A DNA stretch of 64,000 nt from Deltaproteobacteria bacterium (GTDB taxonomy: Bacteria; Desulfobacterota; Binatia; Binatales; Binataceae). Both the position numbers and the translations under genes were made by a program. The stretch spans positions 9,755-73,754 of the forward strand of contig JAJYRQ010000007.1 of assembly GCA_021794015.1 (NCBI GenBank). The letters run 5' to 3'. The notes beneath the pieces were generated by a model. It ran no database searches and had not been told where the DNA came from. It saw only the letters and a program-made list of their open reading frames with translations. This document shows, piece by piece, positions 9,337-64,000 of the stretch. Numbering within the stretch: position 1 is the stretch's first letter; the number at the start of each line of letters is the position of its first letter.

Positions 9337-10284
9337 CTAGAACGGCCAGAGCCAGTCGAAGAGGCGGCTGCCGGCGCCGACTCCCTGCTTGTCGCGGATC
9401 AGCCCCTTGCCGGCCAGGCTTACGTGCAGGTTGGCGACCTTGTACGACGGCACGTTGTTGTTCGAGTCCAGGTCTTCGATCCGGACGATGCCGCTTACCC
9501 GGACAGTGTCGGTTTCGCCGTTGATGTGAACCTCGCGTTCGCCCTTAACCACCAGGTCGCCGGCGGGCGTCATGGCGACCACCAGGGCGCTTATGTTGGC
9601 GGTGAAGGTGTCGCCGGCGGTCATGTTGCCCTGGCCGGCGGTGTTGTTCTGGGATGACGTGTTGATGAGGCTGCCCAGGTTGAGCAGCGGATTGTGAGCC
9701 GCCAGTGACTCGGTTCCGGTGAGCAAATTGGGCGCCGCGCTTTGCAGCGCGCGCTTGTCGGCGAGCGTAGTCTGCGCCGAGCTGGCCCCGCTTATCGACT
9801 CGCTCACTTTGACGGTGATGAGATCGCCGACTGCGCGGGCTTTGTAGTCGGCGGCTAGATCAACGTCGTTCTCGGCCAGTGCTATGGTGCCGTCGGCTTG
9901 GGCGGCGCCTTGTGCCGTGCCAGGGTAGGCCAGCTCGGCCGGCGCCATGAGCATCGCCCCGGCGCCTGGGCCCTCCTTGGGCGGGTCGATTCGAGAAGGA
10001 TTGGCCGGCGCCGGCTGCGGCAATGCCGCGGCGCCGCTTGCGCTGCCGGCATTGGCAACTTGCACCGGGCCGCCCGCGGCCGGGCTCGTCGGCTGCGCCG
10101 CAACAGGCGGATCGGGACTGTCGGCCGGCGCGTTGGATCGCTCGGAACGGCGGCTGCCGGAGAACAGAGGCGGTGCCAGTTGGGCCACCGTCGGCAGATA
10201 ACCCAGAAAAGGCAGCGCGGCGCATCCCGCGGTCGTTGCCGCCAGGACAAGCAGCGCGGCTGCGGTGCCCAGGGTCCTGCTCAT
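9337..10284 (-). CDS. flgH: flagellar L-ring lipoprotein FlgH (with a long low-complexity insertion)
   Basis: Lipobox 'AATTAGCA' and C-terminal 'GETDTVRVSGIVRIEDLDSNNNVPSYKVANLHVSLAGKG' FlgH core. Confidence 0.8.
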   Translation of the reverse strand: MSRTLGTAAALLVLAATTAGCAALPFLGYLPTVAQLAPPLFSGSRRSERSNAPADSPDPPVAAQPTSPAAGGPVQVANAGSASGAAALPQPAPANPSRIDPPKEGPGAGAMLMAPAELAYPGTAQGAAQADGTIALAENDVDLAADYKARAVGDLITVKVSESISGASSAQTTLADKRALQSAAPNLLTGTESLAAHNPLLNLGSLINTSSQNNTAGQGNMTAGDTFTANISALVVAMTPAGDLVVKGEREVHINGETDTVRVSGIVRIEDLDSNNNVPSYKVANLHVSLAGKGLIRDKQGVGAGSRLFDWLWPF

Positions 10285-57123: not shown

Positions 57124-58119
57124 TCAAATCCGAATCCGCTCAACCTCGTCGAGTGCGACCGCGTCGCGGGTGCGGTCGTAGAGCTTGGTGGTGCGCGGCG
57201 ACTCGTGCGCGGCGATCTGCTGGGCGTGCTCCAGCGTACCGCCGTTTTGCAGGTAGGTGGTGATGCCGGTTGCGCGGAAGGTGTGGCAGCAAGTCGAGTA
57301 GGGCAGCCCGGCCTTTAATGCCCGCCGCTTGATCATTTGCAGGACGTCGATCCGTGTAAGCGGGTTGGCCGCCAGCCGTCCTCCCTTGCGCACCGTCCGG
57401 AACAGCGGCCCCTTGCGCTCGGCCTTAAGCCCGGCTGCGGCGATCCAGGCGTCGATCGCTTCCTCCAGCTTATGATGGCAGGGCACCTCGTGGCGCTTGC
57501 CGCCCTTCTCATGGAGCCGCACCCAGGCGCGCCGGCCCTGGCTGAAGTAGTCCTCGACCCGCATCGCCACGACCGCTCCGACCCGGGCAAAGCTGTAGAC
57601 CATGGTTGCGATCAGCGCCCGGTCGCGAACGCCGATTAACGTATCGGTTTCAATTGAATCGATCAGCCGTCGGGTCTCCTCGGCGCTTAAAACCGGCGTC
57701 TTGCCCCGCTTGATAACGTATTTCGGCCCGCGCACCGAGCCGGCCGGATTGGAACGCAGGATGCCGCCGGTGACCAGGTAGTCAAAAAGCCGGCGAATCG
57801 CCGCCAGGTGTTGCTTGACGGTTGGCTTGGCCGCCCTTTGCTGAAGTCTTTCGACGTAGGCGGCCACCACGGTCGGCCCGATATCGTCCAGACTGAAGCG
57901 GCGCCGATCGCAGAAATCAAAGAACTGCCTTACCGCGCGGGCGTAGGCCAGGCGCGTGTTGCGGTTGCGAATCGCGGCGGCGAAAAACTCGATGAACCGC
58001 CGGCTTGCCTGCTCGCCGCCGGCACGGATCGCCGCCGGCAGGGCCTCCATTCCCGCCCGGACAAGGGCCGGCGGCGGCGCAACCTCGTCCGTCAGAAGAA
58101 TCGGCGCTTTGCCTGACAT
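57124..58119 (-). CDS. tyrosine-type site-specific recombinase/integrase
   Basis: N-terminal SAM-like domain and a C-terminal catalytic box 'HTFRATGITTYLQNGGTLEHAQQIAAHESPRTTKLYDRT' with the R...HxxR...Y signature. Confidence 0.85.
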   Translation of the reverse strand: MSGKAPILLTDEVAPPPALVRAGMEALPAAIRAGGEQASRRFIEFFAAAIRNRNTRLAYARAVRQFFDFCDRRRFSLDDIGPTVVAAYVERLQQRAAKPTVKQHLAAIRRLFDYLVTGGILRSNPAGSVRGPKYVIKRGKTPVLSAEETRRLIDSIETDTLIGVRDRALIATMVYSFARVGAVVAMRVEDYFSQGRRAWVRLHEKGGKRHEVPCHHKLEEAIDAWIAAAGLKAERKGPLFRTVRKGGRLAANPLTRIDVLQMIKRRALKAGLPYSTCCHTFRATGITTYLQNGGTLEHAQQIAAHESPRTTKLYDRTRDAVALDEVERIRI

Positions 58120-58143
58120 TCCGACTTCCAGCCATTCTGGCAG

Positions 58144-58506
58144 ATGATGGAAGCGTTGGCCAACAAGGTGGGCCGGCGCGCAACGGTCGTGTTGCCGGCG
58201 AAGCTGCGCCGCCGCCTCGGTATCGAAGAGGGGTCCTTCGTGGTCACCGAAGAGCGCGAGGATGGGATACTGATCCGCCCGGCTGCCGTGCTACCGGTCG
58301 AAGTCTATACAGCCGAGCGCAGGGCTGAGTCCCTGCTTAACAACGCGCTCGATGCTGAGGATTACCCGCGTGCACGCGCCGAAGTGAAGCGGCTGGGGCT
58401 GGATCCCGACCGCACCAAGCACCGCCGGCCCCAGGCGGCCAAGCCGCGAAGCCGGCAAAATCAAGCCGGCGCTGCGGGTAGGGCAGGGCGCCGGCGCCCT
58501 GGGTAA
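58144..58506 (+). CDS. AbrB/MazE/SpoVT-family antitoxin-like protein (orphan)
   Basis: 'RRATVVLPAKLRRRLGIEEGSFVVTEEREDGILIRP' is a swapped-hairpin AbrB fold. No cognate toxin ORF is adjacent. Confidence 0.5.
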   Translation: MMEALANKVGRRATVVLPAKLRRRLGIEEGSFVVTEEREDGILIRPAAVLPVEVYTAERRAESLLNNALDAEDYPRARAEVKRLGLDPDRTKHRRPQAAKPRSRQNQAGAAGRAGRRRPG

Positions 58507-58678
58507 TCTTCCGAGGCAGGTAGACGCGACAAGCAATGGAAGAAGGGGAAGGCCGCCGGAGAACGGCCGGCCTCGCGCAGATTCCATAAAAGCGCTTGCG
58601 TCCATCAATCCTGGCGTCCGGAAAGCCGGAAAATCGGTCGTGAACGACTTACATCCAGCCACCACTTGTTGCGTACTA

Positions 58679-58703
58679 CATGCTGTGATACATCTTAAGC
58701 ATG
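58679..58703 (+). promoter_or_regulatory. inverted repeat CATGCT-N13-AGCATG spanning the start of the RHH antitoxin gene, a candidate autoregulatory operator
   Basis: Perfect 6-bp arms at 58679-58684 and 58698-58703. The -35-like TTGCGT lies at 58669-58674. Confidence 0.3.
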
Positions 58704-58997
58704 AGCGCGTTGAGCATCAGAGTCGATCCGGAAACCGCAGCTTTTCTTGAGTGCGCGGCGCGCCAAACCGGTCGCACCAAGTCCGAACTCGTTCGCCAAG
58801 CGCTCGAGGCCCTGCGTAACCAGGAGGCTCAGCCGGTCATGCGGCCGGCCGCGGCGATGACTGGCCTGATCGGATGTTGGGACAGCGGCGGCATGCGGCT
58901 TTCCGAGCGCACGGGTGCGCGCTTCGCCCAGATGCTACAAAAGCAAAGACATGAGCACCGTACTGGTCGACGCCGGCCCGCTCGTCGCGCTGATTGA
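58701..58997 (+). CDS. ribbon-helix-helix (CopG-like) antitoxin
   Basis: 'LSIRVDPETAAFLECAARQTGRTKSELVRQALEAL'. Confidence 0.6.
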   Translation: MSALSIRVDPETAAFLECAARQTGRTKSELVRQALEALRNQEAQPVMRPAAAMTGLIGCWDSGGMRLSERTGARFAQMLQKQRHEHRTGRRRPARRAD

Positions 58998-59361
58998 TCG
59001 CAGCGATCCCTATCACGACGCCTGTCGAGAAGCTCTGAGGGAGATCGACGACCCGCTCGGCACCGTGTGGCCCGCTTTTACGGAAGCGATGTATTTGCTC
59101 AGATCATCCGCGCAGGCGCAGCGTGCGTTGTGGGACATGATCAATGTGGGCGCGGTGCGCTTCATGCCTCTCGGGAGCGACGACTGTCCCCGCATCCGTG
59201 AGCTAATGTGGAAATATCGCGATTTGCCGATGGACCTCGCGGACGCCGCTTTGGTCCGGTTGGCTGAACGTGAACGCCTGCGGCGCATTTTCACCGTGGA
59301 CCGTCAAGACTTCGAGGTTTACAGGCCGCATCGGCTCGGCCGTTTCGAGATTATTCCTTGA
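58951..59361 (+). CDS. vapC: PIN-domain toxin VapC
   Basis: 'MSTVLVDAGPLVALIDRSDPYH...DLADAALVRLAERERLRRIFTVDRQDF' PIN acidic residues. The internal ATG at 58951 is preferred to the ORF-track start at 58915. Confidence 0.7.
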   Translation: MSTVLVDAGPLVALIDRSDPYHDACREALREIDDPLGTVWPAFTEAMYLLRSSAQAQRALWDMINVGAVRFMPLGSDDCPRIRELMWKYRDLPMDLADAALVRLAERERLRRIFTVDRQDFEVYRPHRLGRFEIIP

Positions 59362-59402
59362 GCTTTCCCCGCCCGGGACAGGCGCTCAGCACACCGGCGC
59401 CT

Positions 59403-59882
59403 CGCTTTCTCCTGGACCGGATATTTCTCGACGCCAACGTACTGTCTTCGGCCGCATACCTGAAGAATTCCCGGCTGGGCCGGCTCTGACGGCTTGAAGA
59501 TGCCGAGCTTCTGAGCTCGGCCTTCGCCGTCGAGCAAGCGCGACGCAACCTGGCCTTGGACCGTCGCGCGGCGCTGGCCCGCCTTGAACGGCTGACCCTT
59601 GCGCTGAAACTGCTCAACCCGCCGCGCGACCTCAAGCTGCCGGCAGGCGTCCGGCTTGACTTCAACGATCAGCCGATCCTGCTGGCCGCGATCCACGGCA
59701 AGGCTGATTTTCTGCTGACCGGCGACGGCCGCCACTTCGGCCATCTTTTCGGCAAGCGCATCGAGGGCGCGATGGTGTTGCGGCCGGCGCAGTACTTCCA
59801 GCGCCGGGGGCGCCGCCGCTTTCCCGCCCGGAACCACCGCCTCGCCGACCATGGGCAAGCATTGGACTTAGTCCGAGGCTAA
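59403..59882 (+). pseudogene. PIN-domain toxin-like gene interrupted by an in-frame TGA at 59487-59489
   Basis: Frame 0 reads 'LDRIFLDANVLSSAAYLKNSRLGRL*RLEDAELLSSAF...DFNDQPILLAAIHGKADFLLTGDGRHFGHL', so the N- and C-terminal PIN motifs are separated by a single TGA. There is no ATG at the 5' end. Confidence 0.45.
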
Positions 59883-59886
59883 GTCT

Positions 59887-60135
59887 ATGATCAGCGACAT
59901 GAGCCGAGCGGTCAACGTACACGAAGCCAAAACGCGCTTCTCGAAGCTGCTCAAGCGCGTCGAACTCGGCGAAGAGGTGGTAATTGCCAAAGCCGGCCGC
60001 CCGGTGGCGCGCCTGGTTCCGTTTGTACTTGCCGGAGCCTTGCGGCGGCCCGGTACCGCCAAAGGTCGAATCACGGTTGCGCCTGACTTCGACGCGCCGC
60101 TCTCCGAAGAACTCGCAAGCGCCTTCCTCGGGTGA
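59887..60135 (+). CDS. Phd/YefM-family antitoxin (VapB-type)
   Basis: 'RAVNVHEAKTRFSKLLKRVELGEEVVIAKAGRPVARLVPF'. Its stop overlaps the vapC GTG as GTGA. Confidence 0.7.
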   Translation: MISDMSRAVNVHEAKTRFSKLLKRVELGEEVVIAKAGRPVARLVPFVLAGALRRPGTAKGRITVAPDFDAPLSEELASAFLG

Positions 60136-60518
60136 AGCTTCTGCTCGACACGCACGCCTTTCTTTGGTGGGTTAGCGACAATCCCAAGCTCTCGCCTCGC
60201 GCGCGCCGGCTAATCGCCGCCGGCACAAACCAAGTCTTCTTCAGCGCCGCCAGCGCCTGGGAAATAGCAATCAATACGGGCCTGGGCCGGCTAACAGTGG
60301 CCGGCGACCTGCAAGAGTTTATGCTCGAGCAGCTAAGGCTCAACGGCTTCGAGGTGCTGCCAATCCACCTCAAGCATGCGCTCTTAACCCACCGGCTGCC
60401 GCCACACCACAGCGACCCGTTTGACCGGATGCTGGTTGCCCAAGCGATGGCTGAGGGCTTGGCGATCCTGAGCGCCGATCCGGCGCTTGGCCGCTACCGG
60501 GTGCGCGTGGTCTGGTGA
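60132..60518 (+). CDS. vapC: PIN-domain toxin VapC
   Basis: 'KLLLDTHAFLWW...SAASAWEIAIN...SDPFDRMLVAQAMAEGLAILSADPAL'. Confidence 0.8.
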   Translation: MKLLLDTHAFLWWVSDNPKLSPRARRLIAAGTNQVFFSAASAWEIAINTGLGRLTVAGDLQEFMLEQLRLNGFEVLPIHLKHALLTHRLPPHHSDPFDRMLVAQAMAEGLAILSADPALGRYRVRVVW

Positions 60519-60519
60519 G

Positions 60520-61620
60520 CGGGCGGATCGCACCACCATCGAGGAGCAAAGCGCGGGCTTCGCCAGGCAGCTTCCAGCGCAGAGGCCGGCAATCGACTCA
60601 ACCACCGCTTCCGCGCCGCAGGCGGCGCCGTCATTATTGCTAATTGCATATTGCAGTGACAGAGTCGTCCTGAGCCGGCTCGTTTGGTGCGTGATTCTCG
60701 GCTGCAGTTGCCACGCGGAGAATCGTAACGTTTCGCCCGCGCTGCGGCAGCATAACCCGGGATTCCCCTCGGCAGGGACACGCGTCGCGCATCCCCGCAT
60801 TGCACTCCCGCTGGCCGGGCAAGCTGTCGTGCGGCGAGCACCGCGCGGGGGAGTGACAGCAGTGGGGCGCGCACCTCCTTTTCCTGATTCCTCTCCCCCG
60901 CCGGGGGAGAGGATCAAGGAGAGGGGGGCGCACCGCGCAAGCGGAGTCGAAGGCAGAAGGGGGGCGCACCCAGAGGCTCGAGGTGGCGCCAGCGGCCCCC
61001 CTCACCCTTCCCTCTCCCCCCAAGGGGAGAGGGAGACAAGAACGAGCACCGCGCGCGGGAATGACGGCAGTGGGGCGCGCGGCTCCTACTTGTCACCCCC
61101 GCGCTCCCTTCTCCCTGTCACCCTGAGCGAAGCGAAGGGCCTACGCGAAGCGATTTGTCCTCCAGCGGCGTGGCGAACCCACCTGCCTGCGCCGACGCGC
61201 CAGGCAGGTCGCTGCGCGTAGATTCTTCGCTCCGCAGACCGCGCTCAGAATGACATCCGCGGTCGACGGTCACCGGTGAGGCTGCCTCCAGCACGAGCAG
61301 GGCTGCCCTGCAGCGAGCGCCGCGCGGAAATGACGGCAGTGGGGCGTCCGGCTGCTGCTTGTCACCCCCGCGCGTGGCCGTTGCATCGCGGCAGGGACAC
61401 GCGTCGCGCATCCCCTTTTCCTGATTCCTCTCCCCCGCCGGGGGAGAGGATCAAGGAGAGGGGGGACGCTCCGCGCAAGCGCAGTCGAAGGAAGAGGGGG
61501 GACGCACCGCGCGCGAGGGGTCCCGGGCCCACGGCGCCACGCCATCGCGTGCCGCCTGGCTCGTGTGCCGACCAGCGCGGCGTTACGCTCCCGCTGGCCG
61601 TGCCGCACCCGAGGTGCTCG
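60520..61620. repeat. non-coding block of mosaic direct repeats and GC-rich hairpins
   Basis: A 26-nt exact direct repeat (GGCAGGGACACGCGTCGCGCATCCCC) lies at 60771-60796 and 61390-61415. A 52-nt exact repeat lies at 60877-60928 and 61414-61465 and extends to about 95 nt at roughly 90% identity. Three copies of a CGCGCGG..ATGAC.GCAGTGGGGCG unit lie at 60843, 61053 and 61320. Hairpins CTCTCCCCC-gcc-GGGGGAGAG and CCCTCTCCCC-caa-GGGGAGAGGG are present. Confidence 0.7.
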
Positions 61621-61751: not shown

Positions 61752-63569
61752 TTAGACTCCCCACAGCCGTTCCCGACAGAACGCTTCGGCCTGAGAGAAT
61801 CTGCGTATCGATCCGCCAAAGAGGCCTGCCCGGAGTGCCGGCCATTCCTCTTTCGCCTCTGCGGCCTCTCGGACGATCTCAACCCATGTCTCCTTAGCTT
61901 GCCACGCGAAGCGCCCTGGTAGCGTTATCGGCCAGTCAGGGGCAACATCCCTATGGACGAGCGTGAGGAAGCACTCGAAGCGGTGGAAGCATGCGTCATA
62001 TTGAGCGTCCTCAGGCAGCAGGTCCTGAAATGATTCACGGAGTGCGGCGTGAATGTGCTGGCTGAATGGTGTCGGCTTGGAATGGAGAACACCCTTAACC
62101 CCTGGCAGGTTGACCGCCAAGCGCTCATCGAGAATCATTCCCGTATTCACTAGCCGGATCAATGGAAGTTCGCCCGCTACGGAGCGCACCTTAATTTGCG
62201 GGGAAAGCAACGCCGCGAGCGCCTCGTACCCTGGCGCCGCCACCGCTGCAACTCCTCCAGCGTATAAAACGAGCAATGCCGGGTACCACCTGAAGTTGAA
62301 CCACTCCCCATCGCCAAAATGCGTTACCGGAGGGTTCGCGATCCGCCTGAGGCACCCAGCCCAATATGCCGCATGCTTCGGCGCACCCCAACGGCATCCC
62401 GTCAGAACAATGGCGCGAAGACGCCCGGTGAGCGACTCGTACTCTTTAAGCCGACCGGCAATTTCCGGAACCCTAAACGGCACGCCCAGAACGGGAAACC
62501 GAGCGTCGGTAAGCTTGGTGTGAACCGTCTCGGTTTCGCCAATGACAAGCTTGTGAAGTTCGATCCTATGTATGTCGTCGACCAGATATTTCTGCAACCG
62601 ATCGATGACATCAGCGGTCGCGGGCACTTTGGGCGCTTCGGTGTTCGGAAGCTCGACTAGCTCTGTGCTCTCTTCCGGCGCAATCGCGCGTACTAACTCC
62701 GCTATGACGTATTCGAGACCCCTTGCAGAGGATACAGCCACCCGGTCTGCCAATGTTGGCGAGTAGGCTCTTATCTCATTTGGGCCAATTTCATGCCATA
62801 CCGGCAGTAAGACTTTCGCCCCGCCAACTTCGCGCGCAACCAATCCGTCCAATTCCTTTTGAGGCCAGTTCTTCTGCAAAAAACTTGGGCTAATTACCAC
62901 CACGCCGAACTTGGAGCGTGCCAAACCCCGATCAATTGACTGGCGCAAGCTGTCTCCTACCCTAAGTGTGGCTTCATCGAACCACACCCTGAGCCCGCGC
63001 TCCTGTAGCCCTTTAGCCAGCGGACGCACAAAAGCCTCCTTGTCTTCGCTCGCGTGGCTCACGAACACCTCCCACTCTGCGTAGGGTGTCCCTTGGCCTC
63101 GCGGAATGACAGGCTCTTTGGGCAGAGCCTCCCAGAGAATATCACTGGGTTCACAGTCGACGGCTCCGGCAAGGTTCTTCACCTTTTCGACGCCGTCGGC
63201 GAGCGAACTTACCGCTCCCTCCGGCCAACCATCTTGGGCTGTTTTCGCACACTCCTGTTGACGCCTCTGCGTCACAAACATCAGCGCAGCCTTCACATAT
63301 CGCAGGTTCCCTACCGAGATCCCCCTGACGACGATCCCCTGGGCGTTCGCCTCGCCTAGTTGTTGCTCCCCAAATTCGAGTAGCTGGGTCAGGTCAGCGA
63401 CTTCGTGTTCATATGGTGGGTATGTCGCACCATGTTCGATCGCGCGCTGGTTCCACGCCTTGAGCTCGTCGCAAAGAAGACGCAGCCCTTCCTGGACAAC
63501 TTGGTAACGCATGCGCGAAAGCCTGAAATCTCCGGTAAGCGTCGAGTCAAACTCATAGTGATAGCCCAT
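61752..63569 (-). CDS. 605-aa protein with a central TIR domain flanked by unassigned N-terminal (about 160 aa) and C-terminal (about 300 aa) regions
   Basis: 'EVFVSHASEDKEAFVRPLAKGLQERGLRVWFDEATLRVGDSLRQSIDRGLARSKFGVVVISPSFLQKNWPQKELDGLVAR...VLLPVWH' matches a bacterial TIR pattern: the FISHASEDK-type betaA strand, the VW.D...L.VGDSL loop and the W..KEL helix with a conserved Glu. GAGGTGA Shine-Dalgarno 7 nt before the ATG. The gene is lower in GC than its neighbours. Confidence 0.8.
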   Translation of the reverse strand: MGYHYEFDSTLTGDFRLSRMRYQVVQEGLRLLCDELKAWNQRAIEHGATYPPYEHEVADLTQLLEFGEQQLGEANAQGIVVRGISVGNLRYVKAALMFVTQRRQQECAKTAQDGWPEGAVSSLADGVEKVKNLAGAVDCEPSDILWEALPKEPVIPRGQGTPYAEWEVFVSHASEDKEAFVRPLAKGLQERGLRVWFDEATLRVGDSLRQSIDRGLARSKFGVVVISPSFLQKNWPQKELDGLVAREVGGAKVLLPVWHEIGPNEIRAYSPTLADRVAVSSARGLEYVIAELVRAIAPEESTELVELPNTEAPKVPATADVIDRLQKYLVDDIHRIELHKLVIGETETVHTKLTDARFPVLGVPFRVPEIAGRLKEYESLTGRLRAIVLTGCRWGAPKHAAYWAGCLRRIANPPVTHFGDGEWFNFRWYPALLVLYAGGVAAVAAPGYEALAALLSPQIKVRSVAGELPLIRLVNTGMILDERLAVNLPGVKGVLHSKPTPFSQHIHAALRESFQDLLPEDAQYDACFHRFECFLTLVHRDVAPDWPITLPGRFAWQAKETWVEIVREAAEAKEEWPALRAGLFGGSIRRFSQAEAFCRERLWGV

Positions 63570-63658
63570 CCTGCGTCACCTCGACTGGCATAAGTAAACT
63601 GTTTCTCTGCTGCTTCCGAGCGTGAGCGGTGCAATCGACTTACGGCTTACCGGTTTTC

Positions 63659-63964
63659 CTACGCTGCACGTAGGCGAACGCGCCGGTTCCCAAAGCTAGC
63701 GACGACTTCGATCTCGCCTCCGAGAGCGGCCACGTACCGCTGCAATGTGGACAGTCGGTAGTCTGTCCGGCTTTCGAGCCGCGATATTTCCGACTGCGCC
63801 TTCCTCAGGGCTTCCGCCAGCTCCTCCTGCGTCTTTCCGGCAGCCTCGCGCAATTCCCTGAGGTCCATTTCGAGCAGTTGATCCGCTACGGCGCGGTCGA
63901 TCTCTTTGAGCTTCTTGGGCGAAAACTTCCGTGCCCGGACGTCGCGCCACGGCTTGGTCCTCAT
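63659..63964 (-). CDS. XRE-family HTH protein, HigA-type antitoxin-like
   Basis: 'WRDVRARKFSPKKLKEIDRAVADQLLEMDLRELREAAGKTQEELAEALRKAQSEISRLESRTDYRLSTLQRYVAALGGEIEV' is a HigA-like HTH. Its ATG overlaps a TGA of an upstream ORF as ATGA. Confidence 0.7.
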   Translation of the reverse strand: MRTKPWRDVRARKFSPKKLKEIDRAVADQLLEMDLRELREAAGKTQEELAEALRKAQSEISRLESRTDYRLSTLQRYVAALGGEIEVVASFGNRRVRLRAA

Positions 63965-64000
63965 TTTCTCTTCTCCTCTCTTGCCAGATCGGCCAAGTAG
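63961..64000 (-). CDS. 3' end of an upstream minus-strand ORF running off the window (possible HigB/RelE-type toxin partner)
   Basis: The frame is open from the window edge ('...YLADLAREEKRK*') and ends in an ATGA overlap with the XRE start. Its identity cannot be determined from 13 codons. Confidence 0.25.
   Translation of the reverse strand, partial: YLADLAREEKRK

What the first reader, a model, noticed from the sequence alone, without database searches (positions are those of the whole stretch)
63570..64000. HigA-like XRE gene directly upstream of the TIR gene on the same strand, with a partner ORF cut by the window edge
The 101-aa XRE protein has the HigA antitoxin pattern (WRDVR..KFSPKKLKEIDR...LSTLQRYVAALGG). 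Its start codon overlaps (ATGA) the stop of another minus-strand ORF that continues past position 64000. There are two readings. One is that this is an ordinary higBA-type TA module that happens to sit next to the TIR gene. The other is that the XRE regulator belongs to a three-gene cassette (an unknown gene, XRE, TIR) in which it controls the TIR effector. The gap to the TIR gene is 89 bp and the TIR gene has its own Shine-Dalgarno.
Basis: partly seen in the sequence, partly recalled or inferred. Interest (0 to 1): 0.55.

Follow-up and report, generated by a model that had tools for sequence, protein, structure and literature searches.

The report
HigBA-type toxin-antitoxin pair beside TIR gene
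The small regulator gene is the antitoxin half of an ordinary, very common two-gene toxin-antitoxin module that here sits next to a stand-alone TIR immune gene inside a cluster of such modules, and comparison with related genomes gives almost no support for a dedicated three-gene system.

Summary
A 101-aa XRE gene (63659-63964, minus strand) overlaps by ATGA the stop of an ORF that leaves the window. It lies 89 nt upstream of a 605-aa TIR gene that has its own GAGGT ribosome-binding site.

The window end is 100% identical to a public contig, so the cut ORF can be read. It encodes a 117-aa Gp49/PF05973 protein. Its predicted structure best matches solved HigB and RelE toxins. The XRE protein matches solved HigA3, HigA2 and HigA antitoxins. 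A near-consensus promoter with a palindromic operator precedes the toxin gene and is conserved in most aligned relatives.

The pair behaves as an autonomous two-gene module:
- At least 70 of 80 related genomic loci keep the toxin-antitoxin pair, with unrelated downstream genes on either strand.
- The closest pairs (85-89% identity) have no TIR gene.
- None of 86 loci encoding TIR relatives, including the closest (59-75% identity), carries the pair.

One other metagenome-assembled genome (MAG) shares a colinear toxin-antitoxin-gap-TIR block. No separate promoter or terminator is predicted in the gap, so read-through transcription into the TIR gene remains possible.

Verdict: an ordinary HigBA-type module in a toxin-antitoxin/defence island. 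Low interest.

The parts
63961..64000 (-). Last 12 codons plus the stop of the toxin gene. The full gene is 117 aa, Gp49/PF05973, a HigB-like RelE/ParE-superfamily toxin. The rest lies beyond the window at L001 9651-10004.
   Evidence: The window end is 100% identical to L001. Pfam Gp49 scores 3.6e-16. The AlphaFold model has pLDDT 93.8. The best Foldseek hits are HigB of S. pneumoniae 6AF3/6AF4 (TM 0.70-0.73), V. cholerae HigB2 5JAA, and RelE. NCBI names it a RelE/ParE family toxin.
63659..63964 (-). HigA-like XRE antitoxin gene, 101 aa. The HTH covers residues 35-86 and is preceded by a ~34-residue N-terminal extension.
   Evidence: Pfam HTH_3 and HTH_31. PDB sequence hits to HigA3 6LTY (4.4e-11), HigA2 7EWC, and HigA 6AF3_B, which is the partner chain of the toxin's best structural match. 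A 101-aa partner with the same 4-nt overlap is present in the closest relatives.
63961..63964 (-). ATGA start/stop overlap, indicating translational coupling of toxin and antitoxin.
   Evidence: Read directly from the sequence. The same -4 overlap appears in 36 of 70 related pairs even with naive ORF calling, and in all called genes of loci L189-L193.
63973..63978 (-). GAGGAG Shine-Dalgarno for the XRE gene, located inside the 3' end of the toxin gene.
   Evidence: Sequence reading only. The spacer to the ATG is 8 nt.
63570..63658 (-). 89-nt intergenic gap between the XRE and TIR genes. No sigma-70-like promoter, no intrinsic terminator and no copy of the TA operator were found in it.
   Evidence: Promoter and terminator scan. 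The RNA fold is not unusual (z = 0.46); the one hairpin sits at the XRE stop and has no U-run. The operator search hits only the TA promoter. There is no Rfam match. The gap is poorly conserved against L025 and unrelated to the upstream regions of other TIR homologues.
63578..63582 (-). GAGGT Shine-Dalgarno of the TIR gene, 8 nt before the ATG.
   Evidence: Sequence reading. A GAGGT or AGGT recurs at this position in most TIR homologues.
61752..63569 (-). Neighbouring 605-aa TIR gene, which is not part of the TA module. It has three parts: an N-terminal domain (1-160), a TIR domain (165-295) and a C-terminal domain (309-600).
   Evidence: Pfam TIR_2 at 1.2e-21. PADLOC PDC-S66 at 5e-59 on the TIR domain and PDC-S65 at 8e-42 on the C-terminal domain. 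Domain shuffling among homologues is shown.

Best explanation
The XRE gene and the ORF cut by the window edge form an autonomous type II toxin-antitoxin module of the HigBA kind. It belongs to the Gp49/PF05973 toxin plus XRE-HTH antitoxin class, the same class as tad-ata and M. tuberculosis HigBA3.

How it most likely works:
- The toxin is inferred to be a ribosome-dependent mRNA endonuclease with the RelE fold.
- The antitoxin is inferred to neutralise it by direct binding.
- Through its HTH, the antitoxin is inferred to repress the module's own promoter. That promoter lies just beyond the window (L001 9605-9633, TTGACA-17-CATAAT). The binding site would be a palindromic operator (GCATATGC / ATGCT-N6-AGCAT) that overlaps the -35 and -10 elements.
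- The two genes are translationally coupled through the ATGA overlap.

The TIR gene downstream is an independent, modular, single-gene defence candidate. It was brought next to the module because both lie in an island rich in TA modules, beside a tyrosine recombinase gene. The likeliest relationship between them is physical linkage: co-inheritance, and possibly stabilisation of the island by the addiction module. At most there is passive read-through transcription from the TA promoter. A dedicated regulator-effector system is unlikely.

Shown here: fold and family assignments, gene order and overlap, promoter and operator conservation, and the absence of conserved linkage. Inferred: toxin activity, neutralisation, autorepression and the transcription pattern.
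For: Toxin identity:
- Pfam Gp49 at 3.6e-16.
- The AlphaFold model (pLDDT 93.8) matches HigB 6AF3/6AF4 (TM ~0.72), HigB2 5JAA and several RelE structures.
- PMC11980606, Table 1, lists PF05973 as RelE/ParE-superfamily toxins (tad, HigB1, HigB3). It gives their activity as ribosome-dependent mRNA degradation and their gene order as toxin first.

Antitoxin identity:
- PDB hits to HigA3, HigA2 and HigA.

Autonomy of the pair:
- More than 2,000 Gp49 homologues were found.
- In 80 genomic loci, an XRE partner is adjacent in at least 70. Downstream genes lie on the opposite strand in 36 and on the same strand in 27, and they are unrelated to one another.
- The closest pairs (85-89% identity) are followed by a ferredoxin-like gene, housekeeping genes or an unannotated ORF, not a TIR gene.

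Promoter and operator:
- The promoter matches 11 of 12 consensus positions.
- The operator motif occurs only there within 20 kb.
- It is conserved in most aligned relatives, whatever gene follows.

Independence of the TIR gene:
- Full-length homologues at 75, 74, 72, 71, 63 and 59% identity lack Gp49/XRE. Their upstream neighbours are an IS3-family transposase gene, unknown genes or another TIR gene.
- None of 80 metagenome TIR loci was positive with HMMs built from the pair. Of 86 TIR loci in all, 26 carry the N-domain, and 21 of those have more than 400 nt of upstream sequence.
- The upstream ORFs in those loci are unrelated to each other.
- PADLOC files the matching models as single-gene candidates.

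Island context:
- HigB-like/HTH, MazE, Phd/PIN and RHH/PIN modules plus a tyrosine recombinase gene.
Against: - No sigma-70-like promoter is predicted between the TA promoter and the TIR start, and there is no terminator after the XRE gene. In this locus the TIR gene may therefore be transcribed from the XRE-repressed TA promoter.
- One other MAG (L025) carries a colinear 1,640-nt block at 70.5% identity. It runs from the Gp49 start through XRE and a 90-nt gap to the end of the TIR domain, and its flanks are unrelated. The three genes have thus travelled together at least once.
- All strain variants of this species keep the three genes together while neighbouring modules are swapped. Those strains are, however, about 99% identical.
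- No experiment was possible.
Confidence: 0.8

Rival explanations
1. TA-gated TIR defence cassette. The three genes form one operon driven by the TA promoter. When the labile HigA-like antitoxin is lost, for example when a phage shuts off host expression, the promoter is derepressed and the TIR effector is induced together with the toxin. XRE would then effectively control TIR.
For: - The genes share a strand and the gap is short (89 nt).
- The only consensus-like promoter on this strand within ~800 nt upstream of the TIR gene is the TA promoter, and no terminator was found.
- The gap hairpin has no U-run.
- A colinear Gp49-XRE-gap-TIR block is shared with L025, where the flanks differ.
- A second Gp49-XRE pair (L056) lies 71 nt upstream of a same-strand NucC-like PD-(D/E)xK nuclease gene.
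Against: - Linkage is absent in all 86 other TIR-relative loci, including the closest at 59-75% identity.
- Linkage is absent in 79 of 80 Gp49 loci, and in the closest Gp49 pairs at 85-89% identity.
- There is no operator copy in the gap, and the gap sequence is poorly conserved.
- The TIR gene has its own ribosome-binding site and is not translationally coupled.
- Read-through from a neighbouring operon would be incidental and does not define a system.
Confidence: 0.12
2. Tripartite toxin-antitoxin system in which the TIR protein is a second toxin, or an accessory component, neutralised by or dependent on the XRE/Gp49 pair. [quoted passage not shown]
For: Only the adjacency and the shared block in L025. 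Three-gene HigBA derivatives are known to exist (TAC papers listed).
Against: - There is no co-occurrence beyond one locus.
- TIR homologues occur alone, with unrelated neighbours.
- The XRE protein has the same 101-aa length and 85-89% identity in pairs that lack a TIR gene, so it carries no extra domain for a third partner.
Confidence: 0.03
3. The XRE gene is a stand-alone transcriptional regulator, and the upstream ORF is a degraded or non-toxic remnant.
For: NCBI names the XRE protein only 'helix-turn-helix transcriptional regulator'. Toxin activity was not tested.
Against: - The toxin ORF is full length.
- 25-30 columns are invariant across homologues at 50-89% identity, including R54, E55, L56, Q59, R66, Y69, D72, R75, K85 and Y92.
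- The structure model is confident.
- The overlap and pair architecture are conserved.
Confidence: 0.05

Closest known systems
HigBA of Streptococcus pneumoniae (PDB 6AF3/6AF4)
   Same: The toxin model's best structural matches are the HigB chains of this complex (TM 0.70-0.73). The XRE protein matches the HigA chain of the same complex by sequence (6AF3_B, 3.1e-6, residues 5-88). Both have an XRE-HTH antitoxin.
   Different: Only 17-19% sequence identity for the toxin. The organism and the promoter/operator are unrelated. No activity data exist for the protein studied here.
Mycobacterium tuberculosis HigBA3 (HigA3, PDB 6LTY) and HigA2 (7EWC)
   Same: HigA3 is the best sequence match in the PDB for the antitoxin (4.4e-11, nearly full length). 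HigB3 is listed among PF05973/gp49 toxins in PMC11980606, Table 1.
   Different: The similarity is distant. Nothing links the mycobacterial modules to a TIR gene.
tad-ata / phage N15 gp49-type modules (PF05973 toxin plus HTH antitoxin), known from Paracoccus plasmids
   Same: Same Pfam family and same toxin-first order. The only plasmid DNA matches to the block fall within the toxin gene. They are in Paracoccus and Pannonibacter plasmids, where the matched genes are annotated as RelE/ParE toxins.
   Different: The module here is chromosomal and sits in a TA island. Identity is about 77-78% over only ~100-120 nt.
HTH-regulated defence operons such as CapH/CapP-controlled CBASS, the comparison for the three-gene reading
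   Same: An XRE-type HTH gene lies upstream of, and on the same strand as, an immune effector gene. There is a weak PADLOC hit to capH (1.5e-4).
   Different: The partner of the XRE protein is a RelE-fold toxin, not a CapP-type protease. The capH hit is generic HTH similarity. No conserved co-occurrence with the effector was found, and there is no operator in front of the effector gene.
PADLOC single-gene TIR candidates PDC-S65/PDC-S66 and Thoeris ThsB (for the neighbouring TIR gene)
   Same: PDC-S66 matches the TIR domain at 5e-59, PDC-S65 matches the C-terminal domain at 8e-42, and ThsB1 models match at 6e-35.
   Different: No single model covers the whole three-domain protein. No ThsA-like partner is present in the island (gene list).

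Membership tests
Type II TA, HigBA kind (Gp49/PF05973 toxin + XRE antitoxin) | Toxin with a RelE/ParE (BECR) fold | tested here: met
   Pfam Gp49 at 3.6e-16, above the 23.9-bit cutoff. AlphaFold model with pLDDT 93.8. Foldseek hits to HigB 6AF3/6AF4, HigB2 5JAA and RelE 1WMI/4FXE at probability 1.00. Sequence-only PDB searches with the protein and with a profile found nothing.
Type II TA, HigBA kind (Gp49/PF05973 toxin + XRE antitoxin) | Antitoxin with an XRE-type HTH, homologous to HigA | tested here: met
   HTH_3 and HTH_31 above their cutoffs. HigA3 at 4.4e-11, HigA2 at 2.2e-7 and HigA at 3.1e-6 in the PDB.
Type II TA, HigBA kind (Gp49/PF05973 toxin + XRE antitoxin) | Reverse gene order (toxin first), with adjacent or overlapping genes | tested here: met
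   ATGA overlap. The same architecture appears in at least 70 of 80 related loci and in all the closest relatives. Toxin-first order for PF05973 is given in PMC11980606.
Type II TA, HigBA kind (Gp49/PF05973 toxin + XRE antitoxin) | Own promoter with a palindromic operator for autoregulation | tested here: met
   TTGACA-17-CATAAT matches 11 of 12 positions. The palindromic motif is unique to this site within 20 kb and is conserved in most aligned relatives. Binding by the antitoxin was not tested.
Type II TA, HigBA kind (Gp49/PF05973 toxin + XRE antitoxin) | Toxin arrests growth (mRNA cleavage) and is neutralised by its cognate antitoxin | not testable with these tools
   This needs expression and rescue assays. 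The only indirect support is strong conservation of 25-30 invariant columns.
   None of 86 TIR-relative loci has Gp49/XRE. Only 1 of 80 Gp49 loci has an adjacent TIR gene. None of the closest Gp49 pairs has one. The single exception is the L025 block.
   The operator pattern, allowing up to 3 mismatches, hits only the TA promoter. The gap is poorly conserved.
   No promoter-like or terminator-like site was found in the gap, and the fold is unremarkable. This permits read-through but does not show it. RNA data are needed.
Thoeris (for the TIR neighbour) | A ThsB-type TIR protein together with a ThsA-type effector (SIR2, Macro or TM with SLOG) | tested here: not met
   ThsB models match the TIR domain (6e-35). 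No ThsA-like gene is present in the island (precomputed Pfam gene list).
Integron cassette array (considered for the island) | An IntI-type integrase | tested here: not met
   The recombinase scores 46.7 bits on TIGR02249 against a cutoff of 265. It looks like a generic XerC/XerD-like tyrosine recombinase.

The most novel reading that the evidence does not exclude
In this lineage the HigBA-type module has been co-opted as the expression switch of the TIR effector. The TIR gene would have no promoter of its own and would be transcribed only by read-through from the antitoxin-repressed TA promoter. Loss of the labile antitoxin during infection would then induce both the RelE-fold toxin and the TIR protein. 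The block shared with L025, and the NucC-like nuclease gene behind another Gp49-XRE pair (L056), would be further examples of TA modules acting as portable, stress-derepressed promoters for defence genes.
Probability: 0.1. Interest if true: 0.45.

Novelty: new member of a known kind. Interest (0 to 1): 0.15.

Why it matters
It matters little beyond annotation. The result settles the identity of an ORF cut by the window edge: it is a HigB-like toxin. It also shows that the XRE gene is that toxin's antitoxin rather than a dedicated TIR regulator. This guards against proposing a new 'XRE-TIR' defence system from adjacency alone. The remaining question is whether TA promoters sometimes drive neighbouring defence genes by read-through. 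That is cheap to test by RNA-seq and would be of moderate interest if it proved general.

Tried and rejected
- Sequence-only searches of the toxin against PDB chains, with the single protein and with a 25-sequence profile, gave only chance hits. The fold had to be shown by structure prediction plus Foldseek.
- NCBIfam gave only sub-threshold hits for both proteins.
- The PADLOC hits of the XRE protein (HTH_VI, PDC-M64C, capH) were judged generic HTH similarity.
- An integron explanation for the island was rejected because the integrase is not IntI-like. No tRNA gene was found in the 20-kb locus L001.
- A search for a conserved alternative upstream partner of the N-domain TIR family found none.
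- Aligning the upstream regions of TIR homologues showed no conservation beyond the ribosome-binding site.
- An Rfam scan of the promoter, gap and repeat region found only sub-threshold hairpin hits, all in the repeat region.
- A viral-contig scan with the TIR alignment returned only matches at the level of the TIR domain.
- A plasmid DNA search matched only the toxin gene.
- A literature search for TIR plus HigBA found no paper containing 'HigBA' among the 10 listed. The one TIR-systems preprint checked does not mention XRE, helix-turn-helix or antitoxin.

Full report
**Observation**

On the minus strand the window ends with three features.
- A 605-aa TIR gene at 61752-63569.
- An 89-nt gap at 63570-63658.
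- A 101-aa XRE gene at 63659-63964.

The ATG of the XRE gene overlaps, as ATGA, the stop of a frame that stays open to position 64000. Only 12 codons of that frame (YLADLAREEKRK*) are inside the window, which by itself proves nothing.

The XRE protein carries HTH_3 and HTH_31 domains at residues 35-86. The TIR protein has TIR_2 at residues 168-277. GAGGT lies 8 nt before the TIR ATG. The TIR N-terminus, MGYHYEFD, matches the family consensus MxYxYxFD.

**Extending the window**

An exact-protein look-up found the same XRE and TIR genes on dozens of public contigs. The last 10,001 nt of the window are 100% identical to contig DAHZEH010000057.1 of assembly GCA_027403145.1 (locus L001). Window position 64000 corresponds to L001 position 9965.

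In L001 the cut ORF is a complete 117-aa gene at 9651-10004. NCBI's record names three consecutive proteins:
- MDA8205167: RelE/ParE family toxin.
- MDA8205166: helix-turn-helix transcriptional regulator.
- MDA8205165: TIR domain protein.

**What the upstream ORF is**

- It matches Pfam Gp49/PF05973 at 3.6e-16.
- Sequence searches against PDB chains failed.
- An AlphaFold model built on 26 homologues is confident, with pLDDT 93.8 and pTM 0.86.
- The model's best Foldseek matches in the PDB are the HigB chains of the Streptococcus pneumoniae HigBA complex (6AF3/6AF4, TM 0.70-0.73). Next come Vibrio cholerae HigB2 (5JAA) and several RelE toxins.
- A 2025 review, PMC11980606 (Table 1), lists PF05973 among RelE/ParE-superfamily toxins under the names gp49, tad, HigB1 and HigB3. 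It gives their activity as ribosome-dependent mRNA degradation and their gene order as toxin first.

**What the XRE protein is**

Its best hits among solved structures are all antitoxins:
- HigA3 of M. tuberculosis (6LTY, 4.4e-11, residues 4-100).
- HigA2 (7EWC).
- HigA chain B of 6AF3, the same complex that holds the toxin's best structural match.

Toxin and antitoxin are thus both homologous to a solved HigBA pair.

**Promoter and operator**

Upstream of the toxin gene lies the only strong sigma-70-like site in the scanned region, L001 9400-12700. It is TTGACA-17-CATAAT at L001 9605-9633, matching 11 of 12 consensus positions. It is interwoven with palindromes, GCATATGC and ATGCT-N6-AGCAT.

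The pattern GCATATGCTnTTnnnnGCAT, allowing up to 3 mismatches, occurs only at this site in the 20-kb locus, once on each strand. The TTGAC...TATGC...GCATA core is conserved upstream of most aligned related Gp49-XRE pairs, whatever gene follows them. L190 and L192, which carry the same toxin protein, are exceptions: their upstream sequence shows no such motif. This is the expected layout of an autorepressed TA operon. Binding itself is inferred.

**Linkage tested from the TA side**

- The toxin has more than 2,000 homologues with E below 1e-5, many at 80-89% identity.
- In 80 loci from species-representative genomes, an XRE homologue lies directly downstream on the same strand in at least 70. 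It is present somewhere in the locus in 77. The modal overlap is 4 nt.
- The next gene lies on the opposite strand in 36 loci and on the same strand in 27, and these genes are unrelated to one another.
- A TIR relative is adjacent in only one locus, L025. One further locus, L090, has a TIR ORF about 3.2 kb downstream.
- The closest pairs found (toxin 85-89% identical, XRE 88-89% identical and 101 aa long, same overlap) are followed by other genes. One has a ferredoxin-like gene on the opposite strand, one has a 201-aa unknown gene after 427 nt, and one is surrounded by housekeeping genes.

**Linkage tested from the TIR side**

The TIR protein is modular. Some homologues share the N-terminal and TIR domains but have other C-termini, for example P0012. 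Others share the TIR and C-terminal domains without the N-terminal domain, for example P0065.

Full-length homologues are few. None has Gp49 or XRE upstream.

| Identity to window TIR | Locus | What lies upstream |
|---|---|---|
| 74-75% | L185 | IS3-family transposase gene |
| 74% | L188 | 761-aa protein with weak, sub-threshold P-loop (AAA_22) matches; TIR reading frame apparently split |
| 72% | L186/L187 | 454 or 284 nt with no gene |
| 71% | L019 | another TIR_2 gene |
| 63% | L021 | small ORFs |
| 59% | L022/L105 | 97-aa unknown |

HMMs built from the 77 XRE and 82 Gp49 sequences found the pair in L025, included as a positive control. They gave no real match in the 80 metagenome loci encoding TIR relatives or in L019, L021 and L022. 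The only other hit was a marginal XRE match on the opposite strand in L184 (3.2e-4). A tblastn check covered L185-L188.

Of the 86 TIR loci in all, 26 include the N-terminal domain. Of those 26, 21 have more than 400 nt of upstream sequence and 17 have more than 750 nt. The upstream ORFs of N-domain TIR genes are unrelated to each other. Upstream DNA shares only the ribosome-binding site. PADLOC matches the protein to the single-gene candidates PDC-S66 and PDC-S65.

**The exception**

L025 is a 4.2-kb contig of low coverage from a MAG labelled Deltaproteobacteria. It aligns with L001 in one colinear 1,640-nt block at 70.5% identity. The block runs from 4 nt before the toxin start, through the XRE gene and a 90-nt gap, to about residue 300 of the TIR protein. 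The flanks are unrelated, and the C-terminal domain is absent or different.

Identities within the block are as follows:

| Segment | Identity |
|---|---|
| Toxin | 82% |
| XRE | 87% |
| TIR domain | 78% |
| N-terminal domain of the TIR protein | 47% |

The gap aligns poorly; by eye roughly half its positions match.

Both the toxin and the TIR protein have closer relatives elsewhere that lack the association. The simplest account is that a piece of a TA/defence island was inherited or transferred as a block, and that each component is also mobile on its own. This shows physical linkage, not functional dependence.

**What stays open**

The scan found no promoter-like site in the gap or within the XRE gene, and no terminator after the XRE gene. 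The only gap hairpin spans the XRE stop codon and is not followed by a U-run. The overall fold is no better than shuffled sequence, with z = 0.46. There is no Rfam match in the gap.

Read-through from the XRE-repressed TA promoter into the TIR gene is therefore plausible in this locus. Only the first half is met.

**Context**

The genes lie in an island of about 10 kb between a glucan phosphorylase gene and an alcohol dehydrogenase gene. The island holds:
- a second HigB-like/HTH pair;
- a MazE-type gene next to a 92-aa ORF with no Pfam match;
- Phd/PIN and RHH/PIN pairs;
- a further MazE-type gene;
- a XerC/XerD-like tyrosine recombinase gene that is not an integron integrase.

Strain variants swap neighbouring modules but keep the toxin-XRE-TIR trio. 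Those strains are, however, about 99% identical. Stabilisation of such islands by addiction modules is established knowledge on my part, not tested here. It offers an ordinary reason for the adjacency.

**Verdict**

This is an ordinary HigBA-type (Gp49/XRE) type II toxin-antitoxin module, already named as such in the public annotation. It sits next to a stand-alone modular TIR gene. The three-gene cassette reading is not supported as a conserved system, and about 10% probability remains for locally meaningful transcriptional coupling. Interest is low.

Noticed in passing
window 60770-61600: A repeat-rich, non-coding stretch downstream of the TIR gene. It contains two copies of a perfect palindrome core, TTCCTCTCCCCCGCCGGGGGAGAGGA, at 60888 and 61425. 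It also has several 27-61-nt direct repeats at 88-100% identity. A 768-nt segment (about 60821-61588) is absent in strain variants L004 and L005. It looks like a MITE- or REP-like insertion.
   Followed up: partly
L002 and L003 versus the window, break at window ~61051: Two other contigs are identical or nearly identical to the window through toxin, XRE and TIR. They then join entirely different housekeeping genes: EPSP synthase and his genes in one, trmD, rimM and rpsP in the other. The break falls exactly at the repeat element. This is either an assembly chimera at a multi-copy repeat or a real rearrangement.
   Followed up: partly
window 57124-60518 and L001 6342-9527: A dense TA island beside a XerC/XerD-like tyrosine recombinase gene (57124-58119). 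It contains MazE-type (58144-58506), RHH plus PIN (58701-59361) and Phd plus PIN (59887-60518) genes. Beyond the window it has a PF05015 HigB-like/HTH pair, a MazE-type gene next to a 92-aa ORF with no Pfam match, and a 349-aa protein with no family match.
   Followed up: partly
L005, L007, L009, L015 compared with L001: Strains about 99% identical differ in module content upstream of the toxin gene. A MazE-type gene plus 92-aa ORF is replaced by a 137-aa PIN gene. The HigB-like gene is replaced by a 130-aa unknown gene on the other strand. This is module-by-module turnover inside the island.
   Followed up: no
window 61752-63569 (TIR protein) and homologues P0012, P0065: The TIR protein is a three-part mosaic. 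The N-terminal domain (1-160) plus TIR domain occurs with other C-termini in dozens of ~400-aa proteins. The TIR domain plus C-terminal domain (309-600, PDC-S65-like) occurs without the N-terminal domain. Neither the N-terminal nor the C-terminal domain has a Pfam match.
   Followed up: partly
L056 4001-5573 (Acidobacteriota MAG): Another Gp49-XRE pair lies 71 nt upstream of a same-strand DUF6602 protein. That protein matches PD-(D/E)xK and NucC-type nuclease models in PADLOC (1e-22). It is a second case of a defence-type effector gene directly behind such a pair.
   Followed up: partly
L001 9651-10004 (toxin): The toxin also matches the C-terminal 100 residues of the PADLOC model NsnC (4.1e-9). 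This suggests that NsnC carries a RelE-like domain.
   Followed up: no
whole window / assembly GCA_027403145.1: NCBI labels the proteins 'Thermaerobacter sp.'. The closest relatives of the toxin in genome collections are in MAGs labelled Candidatus Binataceae or Deltaproteobacteria. The taxonomic label of the source MAG may be unreliable.
   Followed up: no
L188 2905-4725: In the 74%-identical TIR homologue, the reading frame appears split into a 185-aa ORF and a 412-aa ORF. tblastn aligns residues 1-604 continuously across both, so this is a frameshift or a sequencing error.
   Followed up: no
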